From Escherichia coli (GTDB taxonomy: Bacteria; Pseudomonadota; Gammaproteobacteria; Enterobacterales; Enterobacteriaceae): a DNA stretch of 64,000 bases. A program made the translations under genes and the position numbers. This document shows, piece by piece, positions 29,349 through 29,470 of the stretch; the first letter of the stretch is position 1, and the number at the start of each line of letters is the position of its first letter. The notes below the pieces were generated by a model. That model was given only the letters and a program-made list of their open reading frames with translations, was not told the origin of the DNA and made no database searches. The stretch lies in assembly GCF_041248615.1 (NCBI RefSeq), contig NZ_CP158426.1; one strand, given 5' to 3'.

Positions 29349-29452
29349 AACCTCAATGATTTATTTTTATACAAACTATGTTACGTGCTGTAACAGGAGC
29401 GCGAAGTGTAGGGTCTGAGGTACATCTTAGAAATCAGACCAGTGGCGAGAGT

Positions 29453-29470
29453 ATAGGTCGGACCAGCTGG
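29453..29470. promoter_or_regulatory. FadR operator in the fadL promoter
   Basis: TATAGGTCGGACCAGCTGG (reverse strand AGCTGGTCCGACCTATA) matches the FadR consensus CTGGTC-N-GACC; a second, weaker match ATCAGACCAGTGG lies at 29433-29445. Confidence 0.6.

What the first reader, a model, noticed from the sequence alone, without database searches (positions are those of the whole stretch)
29432..29470. Tandem FadR operators upstream of fadL
A strong match (AGCTGGTCCGACCTATA on the reverse strand) and an adjacent weaker one (CCACTGGTCTGAT) lie ~100-120 bp upstream of the fadL start, consistent with FadR repression of the fatty-acid uptake gene.
Basis: partly seen in the sequence, partly recalled or inferred. 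Interest (0 to 1): 0.2.

Follow-up and report, generated by a model that had tools for sequence, protein, structure and literature searches.

The report
Known FadR operators of fadL promoter
These are the two long-known binding sites where the E. coli fatty-acid sensor FadR sits on the promoter of the fatty-acid uptake gene fadL and partly shuts it off until fatty acids arrive; this is textbook and ordinary.

Summary
The window is E. coli, 100% identical to O157:H7/O55:H7 strains here. fadL lies on the − strand (28002..29342). The two motifs are on the − strand: AGCTGGTCCGACCTATA at 29452..29468 and CACTGGTCTGATTTCTA at 29428..29444. Both lie inside DNA identical to the published EMSA probes fadL-FadR1 and fadL-FadR2. 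[quoted passage not shown] On sequence statistics alone, site 1 is modest and site 2 is at chance level. A footprint over 112 Enterobacterales fadL loci is decisive: the site 2 core is present in 111, and both sites in 91, spaced exactly 24 bp apart in 90 of those. The "weaker" site is the more conserved one, and in published gel shifts it binds FadR as well as site 1. Verdict: already known, low interest.

The parts
29452..29468 (-). FadR operator site 1, AGCTGGTCCGACCTATA. Its 3' end overlaps the -10 hexamer.
   Evidence: Exact string. It lies inside the published EMSA probe fadL-FadR1. It scores 13.5 bits on a matrix built from non-fadL sites. Across 111 distinct Enterobacterales sequences the half-sites CTGGTC and GACCTATA are 0.61-0.97 conserved, while the central N (29460) is only 0.10 conserved.
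29428..29444 (-). FadR operator site 2, CACTGGTCTGATTTCTA. It covers the transcription start.
   Evidence: Exact string. It lies inside the published EMSA probe fadL-FadR2. The core 29431..29444 is 0.86-1.00 identical in 111 Enterobacterales sequences. The core is present at the aligned position in 111 of 112 loci.
29443..29443 (-). Inferred fadL transcription start (+1, an A).
   Evidence: [quoted passage not shown] Counted from the first ATG (29348) this is 29443, which places TATACT at -12..-7. Counted from the second ATG (29342) it would be 29437. Either position is inside site 2. The choice of 29443 is my inference.
29450..29455 (-). Inferred -10 hexamer TATACT.
   Evidence: Read from the sequence. 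It is 0.89-0.97 conserved and overlaps the last four bases of site 1. Inference; not found by the consensus scanner.
29475..29480 (-). Inferred -35 hexamer TTGCAA, with a 19-bp spacer to the -10.
   Evidence: Read from the sequence. The block TTGCAACA at 29473..29480 is 0.94-1.00 conserved. The scanner allows only 16-18 bp spacers and so missed it. Inference.
28002..29342 (-). fadL coding sequence (446 aa), the regulated gene.
   Evidence: Pfam Toluene_X/FadL, E = 1.5e-168. RefSeq annotation and start codon. The ATG at 29342 is invariant, while the A of the upstream ATG at 29348 is only 0.44 conserved.
29593..29608 (-). CRP-cAMP box aaGTGAccgaaaTCACA, centred about -157.5 from the fadL +1. It belongs to the same promoter region but is not part of the FadR operators.
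   Evidence: Read from the sequence. Its position matches the CRP site 'centered 157 bp upstream' that was validated by EMSA in PMC3460868.

Best explanation
The two 17-bp boxes are the FadR operators of the E. coli fadL promoter. Apo-FadR is a GntR-family winged-helix dimer, and one dimer binds each box. Site 1 covers the promoter spacer and the first four bases of the -10 hexamer. Site 2 covers -1 to +16. Bound FadR therefore keeps RNA polymerase off the promoter. When long-chain fatty acids are taken up and activated to acyl-CoA (C14 or longer), acyl-CoA binds FadR, FadR leaves the DNA and fadL transcription rises. Repression is modest, about 2-2.5-fold, which leaves enough basal FadL to let the inducer in. 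What is shown, in the literature and for this exact DNA: binding to both sites, release by acyl-CoA, and derepression in a fadR deletion strain. What is shown here: sequence identity to that DNA, the position of the boxes relative to the gene, and deep conservation of both boxes and of their 24-bp spacing. What is inferred: the exact +1 (29443), the -10 and -35 assignments, and steric occlusion as the mechanism of repression.
For: The window is E. coli, and this spacer is present in 5425 of 5426 complete genomes with yfcZ and fadL annotated on either side. The 61-bp promoter core is at least 99% identical in 4782 of 5425 genomes, and in the one variant strain I inspected the differences lie outside both boxes. 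The published EMSA probes for fadL FadR sites 1 and 2 match the window exactly. [quoted passage not shown] The review PMC9329746 places the fadL FadR sites over the transcription start and describes exclusion of RNA polymerase. An independent footprint used 112 Enterobacterales loci anchored on fadL coding sequence, not on the boxes. In most loci the two best FadR-matrix hits fall at -201 and -177 from the anchor. The site 2 core is present in 111 of 112 loci. Both sites are present in 91, with 24-bp spacing in 90 of those 91. The conservation profile shows conserved half-sites around a variable central N, as expected for this consensus.
Against: On sequence statistics alone site 2 is indistinguishable from chance, and site 1 is only about a 1-per-64-kb event with my small matrix. 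By my boundaries the gap between the boxes is 7 bp, whereas PMC3460868 says 8 bp; this is a difference in how the boundaries are drawn. The conservation of the 3' end of site 1 (TATA) could be due to the -10 hexamer rather than to FadR. Repression in vivo is weak, so FadR is not the dominant control of this promoter. CRP, ArcA, OmpR and the small RNA RybB also act on fadL. The primary footprint paper (DiRusso 1993) was not available to me. The coordinates I recall from it (-25 to -9 and -1 to +16) are from memory, though they agree with my numbering.
Confidence: 0.97

Rival explanations
1. The boxes are shared operators for several FadR-subfamily GntR regulators. FadR represses from them, while the pyruvate sensor PdhR and the lactate sensor LldR bind the same two sequences and raise fadL expression. 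This adds a layer on top of FadR control rather than replacing it.
For: LldR genomic SELEX gave a peak in the yfcZ/fadL spacer, and that paper lists exactly these two sequences as its LldR-box matches (11/14 and 9/14). fadL mRNA rose with LldR overexpression and fell in an lldR mutant (PMC10272880). PdhR bound the fadL promoter at a low level, and fadL mRNA fell in a pdhR mutant (PMC7660256).
Against: The LldR peak is near that study's cut-off (intensity 6.6, cut-off 6; compare 62.9 at lldP), and PdhR binding is described as low-level. An activator sitting on the -10 and +1 is mechanistically awkward, so the expression effects could be indirect. No site-specific mutagenesis is reported in the passages I read.
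Confidence: 0.25
2. The conserved block is only the core promoter (-10, discriminator, +1) of fadL. The resemblance to FadR boxes is incidental and has no regulatory role.
For: Site 1 overlaps the -10 and site 2 overlaps +1, both of which are conserved for promoter reasons anyway. Site 2 scores at chance level. Repression is only about 2-fold.
Against: Direct binding and release by acyl-CoA have been shown for this exact DNA. The conservation follows the FadR half-site pattern, CTGGTC-N-GAC with a free central base, and extends to +14, well beyond what a core promoter needs. Other fad promoters carry the same box at the same position. The fadI box in this same window scores 17.4 bits.
Confidence: 0.02
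3. The boxes mainly regulate the divergent gene yfcZ rather than fadL.
For: The boxes lie in a shared 371-bp divergent spacer. yfcZ is listed among candidate targets of the same spacer in the LldR study.
Against: The boxes are 246-286 bp from the yfcZ ATG (29714) but sit directly on the fadL -10 and +1. Their spacing is locked to the fadL coding anchor across genera. fadL-lacZ fusions respond to fadR.
Confidence: 0.03

Closest known systems
E. coli K-12 fadL promoter FadR sites 1 and 2 (footprints of DiRusso et al. 1993; EMSA of Feng & Cronan 2012, PMC3460868)
   Same: It is the same locus and the same sequence. Both published probes match the window base for base. Gene order is the same (yfcZ, then fadL), and so is the position over the -10 and +1.
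   Different: Nothing of substance. The window comes from an O157:H7/O55:H7-type strain rather than K-12. I count 7 bp between the boxes and the paper says 8.
fadD promoter, the only other fad promoter with two FadR sites
   Same: It has two FadR boxes, shows modest (2-3-fold) repression, and is co-regulated by CRP and ArcA.
   Different: The fadD sites are 68 bp apart. One is more than 10-fold weaker and lies near -100. The fadL sites are adjacent, bind with equal affinity, and both lie over the core promoter.
Single-operator fad promoters (fadBA, fadE, fadIJ, fadH, fadM)
   Same: They carry the same 17-bp consensus aaCTGGTCnGACC(T/A)Gtt overlapping the -10/+1 region, and they work by the same acyl-CoA-released repression. 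The fadIJ box is in this window at 30136..30152.
   Different: They have one box instead of two. Repression is stronger at fadBA and fadH, at 5-10-fold.
fabA and fabB FadR activator sites
   Same: The same protein and a similar box. The fabB box GGCTGATCGGACTTGTT is in this window at 48999..49015.
   Different: They lie upstream of the promoter and activate transcription. The fadL boxes lie on the promoter and repress it.

Membership tests
FadR (GntR-family) operator of the E. coli fad regulon | A 17-bp pseudo-palindrome matching aaCTGGTCnGACC(T/A)Gtt | tested here: met
   Site 1 matches 11 of the 12 specified core bases. Site 2 has a perfect left half (CTGGTC-t-GA) and a degenerate right half (9 of 12, by my own count against the consensus); it scores 8.4 bits. 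Site 2 passes only in combination with the other rows.
FadR (GntR-family) operator of the E. coli fad regulon | Lies over the -10/+1 region of a fatty-acid degradation or transport gene promoter (the repressor geometry) | tested here: met
   The downstream gene is fadL. [quoted passage not shown] The conserved TATACT overlaps site 1.
FadR (GntR-family) operator of the E. coli fad regulon | Sequence identity to DNA shown experimentally to bind FadR | tested here: met
   Both 35-nt EMSA probes from PMC4259882 match the window exactly at 29444..29478 and 29417..29451.
FadR (GntR-family) operator of the E. coli fad regulon | FadR binds, and long-chain acyl-CoA releases it | not testable with these tools
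   Reported for this exact sequence in PMC3460868 and PMC4259882. I did not reproduce it.
FadR (GntR-family) operator of the E. coli fad regulon | Conserved upstream of orthologues in species that have FadR | tested here: met
   The site 2 core is present in 111 of 112 Enterobacterales loci. Both sites are present in 91 of 112, with 24-bp spacing in 90 of those 91. I did not check for fadR itself in those genomes.
FadR (GntR-family) operator of the E. coli fad regulon | A fadR gene in the same genome | not tested
   fadR is not in this 64-kb window. That it is a core E. coli gene is established knowledge, not a result obtained here.

The most novel reading that the evidence does not exclude
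The most novel reading not excluded is this. The start-site box (site 2), not the better consensus match (site 1), is the ancestral and principal operator across Enterobacterales. Site 1 is a later addition fused to the -10 hexamer at a fixed 24-bp offset. The pair also serves as a shared docking point for the related sensors FadR, PdhR and LldR, so that fatty-acid, pyruvate and lactate signals are integrated at one promoter.
Probability: 0.25. Interest if true: 0.25.

Novelty: already known. Interest (0 to 1): 0.05.

Why it matters
It matters little as a discovery. These operators were footprinted in 1993, re-validated in 2012 and 2014, and are listed in reviews. The check is useful as a calibration. 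It shows that a reader working from sequence alone correctly recalled a real regulatory element. It also shows that motif statistics alone would not have proved the second site, whereas experimental identity and phylogenetic footprinting do. The small additions here are that the 24-bp spacing is essentially invariant across Enterobacterales and that the consensus-poor site 2 is the more deeply conserved box.

Tried and rejected
1. The sigma-70 consensus scanner did not find the real promoter, because TTGCAA and TATACT are 19 bp apart and the scanner allows only 16-18 bp. Its single hit (TTGCCA-18-GATCAT, 29534..29505) is at the chance rate (1 found, 0.9 expected), and I did not adopt it.

2. 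The pattern CTGGTCNGAYNTNT hit both boxes exactly, but I wrote it after seeing them. It is circular and I discount it.

3. Rfam at gathering threshold found nothing in the spacer; the only hit in the window is a tRNA at 24083..24154. The fadL 5' UTR as a whole does not fold unusually well (z = -0.8).

4. I tried to read two older papers for FadR site tables (PMC99677 and PMC178242). Neither is held, so the DiRusso 1993 coordinates are quoted from memory only.

5. I considered that the boxes serve yfcZ, or are merely core-promoter conservation. I rejected both on geometry and on the published binding data (see the rival explanations).

6. Eight of the 120 coding-pattern loci were non-enterobacterial chance matches with no FadR-like boxes (Verrucomicrobia, Planctomycetota, Bacteroidota and others). 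I excluded them.

Full report
**What is at the coordinates.** The window's − strand carries a 446-aa ORF at 28002..29342 that matches the Pfam FadL/Toluene_X family (E = 1.5e-168). Upstream of it is a 371-bp spacer, followed by a divergent 94-aa DUF406 gene, yfcZ, starting at 29714 on the + strand. After yfcZ come fadI and fadJ. The spacer plus the gene ends is 100% identical to E. coli O157:H7 and O55:H7 chromosomes. It is found once in 5425 of 5426 complete E. coli genomes, always annotated yfcZ | fadL. RefSeq starts fadL at the second ATG, window position 29342.

**The observation.** Read on the − strand, the spacer contains ...TTGCAACATTCC-AGCTGGTCCGACCTATA-CTCTCGC-CACTGGTCTGATTTCTA-AGATG....
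- AGCTGGTCCGACCTATA is at 29452..29468.
- The full 17-mer of the second site, CACTGGTCTGATTTCTA, is at 29428..29444.

The two boxes are on the same strand, start 24 bp apart, and by these boundaries have a 7-bp gap.

**Is it more than chance?** I built a 17-column matrix from FadR sites of other genes only (fadBA, two from fadD, fabA, fabB, fadE). These came from the probe table of PMC4259882 and the box list of PMC10272880.
- In the 64-kb window the top loci are the fabB box (a training sequence), a box upstream of fadI (17.4 bits), and then fadL site 1 (13.5 bits).
- fadL site 2 scores 8.4 bits and ranks about 12th.
- About 0.8–1.2 hits at the level of site 1 are expected by chance per window, and 11–17 at the level of site 2 (13 observed). 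Site 2 alone is therefore not significant.
- A same-strand pair within 40 bp arose in 2 of 200 dinucleotide shuffles.
- The published consensus core CTGGTCNGACCWG with at most 1 mismatch finds three places in the window, including fadL site 1 and the fadI box, against 0.25 expected.

Statistics alone make the pair plausible but do not prove it.

**Identity with experimentally bound DNA.** The string AGCTGGTCCGACCTATA occurs in two held papers. PMC4259882 lists the EMSA probes fadL-FadR1-F (GCAACATTCCAGCTGGTCCGACCTATACTCTCGCC) and fadL-FadR2-F (CTCTCGCCACTGGTCTGATTTCTAAGATGTACCTC) and shows that wild-type FadR shifts both. Both probes match the window exactly, at 29444..29478 and 29417..29451.

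Feng & Cronan 2012 (PMC3460868) state the following:
- The fadL promoter has two experimentally validated FadR sites separated by 8 bp.
- Both sites are essentially fully bound at 50 nM FadR, with equivalent affinity.
- 25–50 µM oleoyl-CoA abolishes binding.
- The results agree with the earlier DNase I footprints of DiRusso et al. 1993.
- A fadR deletion derepresses fadL only 2–2.5-fold, against 5–10-fold for fadBA and fadH.

The 2022 review PMC9329746 gives the consensus aaCTGGTCnGACC(T/A)Gtt. It says the fadL sites overlap the start site and that FadR excludes RNA polymerase until long-chain acyl-CoA binds.

**Geometry in window coordinates.** Counting 95 bp from the first ATG (29348) gives +1 = 29443, an A. 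Counting from the RefSeq ATG (29342) gives 29437. Both positions lie inside site 2. With +1 at 29443:
- the hexamer TATACT (29455..29450) sits at −12..−7;
- TTGCAA (29480..29475) sits 19 bp further upstream;
- site 1 spans −25..−9 and site 2 spans −1..+16.

This agrees with the footprint coordinates I recall from DiRusso 1993; that recollection is from memory, as the paper is not held. The scanner missed this promoter because it allows only 16–18 bp spacers. The −10 and −35 assignments and the exact +1 are my inference. The overlap of the boxes with the start site is stated in the literature.

**Independent test by phylogenetic footprint.** I scanned one genome per species for a degenerate DNA pattern encoding the mature FadL N-terminus (AGFQLNEF). 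This anchor lies inside the gene and is independent of the operators. Of 120 stretches returned, 119 had enough upstream sequence, and 8 of those were non-enterobacterial chance matches that I dropped. That left 112 loci, counting the window, from about 40 genera.
- In most loci the two best matrix hits in the 330 bp upstream of the anchor lie at about −201 and −177, the same offsets as in the window.
- The site 2 core is present at the aligned position in 111 of 112 loci. Both sites are present in 91, with a start-to-start distance of exactly 24 bp in 90 and 23 bp in one.
- In a MAFFT alignment of the 111 distinct sequences, site 2 positions 29431..29444 are 0.86–1.00 identical to the window.
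- Site 1 shows conserved half-sites (CTGGTC 0.61–0.97, GACCTATA 0.92–0.97) around a free central base (29460, 0.10). That is the pattern expected for CTGGTC-N-GACC.
- The block TTGCAACA (the −35) is 0.94–1.00 conserved.
- The A of the first ATG is only 0.44 conserved, while the second ATG is invariant, which supports 29342 as the true start.
- Twenty loci keep only site 2: Photorhabdus, Dickeya, Edwardsiella, and some Erwinia-, Klebsiella- and Cedecea-labelled records. Photorhabdus retains only the GACCTATA half of site 1.

The 3' end of site 1 departs from the FadR consensus (…CCTATA rather than …CCTGTT), most simply because it doubles as the −10 hexamer.

**Within E. coli.** The 61-bp core (29422..29482) is at least 99% identical in 4782 of 5425 genomes and 95–99% identical in the rest. 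In the one variant strain I inspected, the three differences lie upstream of site 1 and neither box is touched.

**Mechanism.**
- Shown in the literature for this DNA: FadR dimers bind both boxes, acyl-CoA releases them, and loss of fadR raises fadL expression about 2-fold.
- Shown here: the DNA is that DNA, it sits on the fadL promoter, and both boxes and their spacing are under strong purifying selection.
- Inferred: repression works by steric exclusion of RNA polymerase from the −10 and +1.

A 24-bp offset is about 2.3 helical turns, which puts the two dimers on different faces of the DNA. That gives no obvious support for cooperative contact, though this was not tested.

**Other regulators on the same spacer, from papers.**
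- A CRP box centred 157 bp upstream of the start, validated by EMSA. In the window it is aaGTGAccgaaaTCACA at 29593..29608, centred at −157.5.
- Genomic SELEX of the related GntR-family sensor LldR gave a peak here. That paper lists the same two sequences as its LldR boxes and reports modest activation of fadL. PdhR binds weakly. This is the only reading with any novelty left. It is already published as a claim and is not strongly supported.

**Verdict.** The feature is already known in full experimental detail, and interest is low.

Noticed in passing
window 30136-30152 (either strand; palindromic): A strong FadR box, AAGTGGTCTGACCTGAT, scoring 17.4 bits, the best non-training hit in the window. 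It lies 27-43 bp upstream of the fadI ATG (30179). It is presumably the known FadR operator of the fadIJ operon mentioned in the review PMC9329746.
   Followed up: partly
window 48999-49015 (+): The fabB FadR activator box GGCTGATCGGACTTGTT, identical to the published fabB probe. It lies about 78-94 bp upstream of fabB (about 49093..50313, +). This single 64-kb window therefore holds three FadR-controlled promoters: fadL, fadIJ and fabB.
   Followed up: partly
window 29379-29395 (-), in the fadL 5' UTR around +49 to +65: An inverted repeat TGTTAC-agcac-GTAACA. Across 111 Enterobacterales sequences the arms are 0.87-0.99 conserved while the 5-nt loop varies (0.14-0.78). One pair changes TA to CG on both sides in 7 sequences, and another shows T-G in 7. 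It coincides with the '+57 CRP site' that failed to bind CRP in PMC3460868. It could be an RNA hairpin or the site of another protein. The whole UTR folds no better than shuffles (z = -0.8).
   Followed up: partly
window 29593-29608 (-): The conserved CRP box for fadL is centred at -157.5 from the fadL start, which Feng & Cronan call atypically far. It is only about 106-121 bp from the yfcZ ATG (29714). It may also, or mainly, serve the divergent yfcZ promoter.
   Followed up: no
window 29505-29537 (-): Conserved blocks upstream of the fadL -35: TTTTTGCCA (29529-29537) and two GATC motifs 14 bp apart (29521-29524 and 29507-29510), each mostly 0.8-0.99 conserved. GAAACAT lies next to the -35 (about 29483-29489). 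These are probably the published OmpR and ArcA sites, but I did not assign them.
   Followed up: no
window 29293-29300 (-), fadL signal-peptide codons: GCAGTGGC is the perfect complement of the first 8 nt of the small RNA RybB (RybB sequence from memory). The review says RybB represses fadL directly. The 8-mer itself occurs at the chance rate in the window (3 found, 2.2 expected).
   Followed up: partly
window 26390-27700 (-): Next to fadL is an Asn/Asp/Ile-rich ORF, 436 aa in the mechanical ORF list and 343 aa in RefSeq, where it is called a hypothetical protein. It has no Pfam match. It sits between fadL and mlaA, where K-12 has yfdF (from memory).
   Followed up: partly
E. coli NZ_CP080172.1 (hit H12); breakpoint at about window 29566: In one chicken isolate the yfcZ-fadL spacer matches in two separate places, with a break between the CRP box and the fadL promoter. 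This suggests an insertion, perhaps an IS element, that uncouples them.
   Followed up: no
loci L045, L051, L079, L090, L102-L104 (Pantoea- and Erwinia-type), about 84 bp upstream of site 2: A third FadR-like box, AGCAGATCTGATTTTAT (up to 15.8 bits), appears exactly 84 bp upstream of site 2 in several Pantoea/Erwinia-type fadL promoters. Several other loci (e.g. L002, L009, L017, L057, L075) show weaker boxes at the same 84-bp offset.
   Followed up: no
window about 9000-24200; tRNA at 24083-24154 (-): By coordinate conversion from the O157:H7 record, beyond yfdC there is a tRNA-Arg followed by an intS integrase and a decayed prophage: ejection proteins, an IS1203 element and several pseudogenes. 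The tRNA is the only Rfam hit in the window.
   Followed up: no
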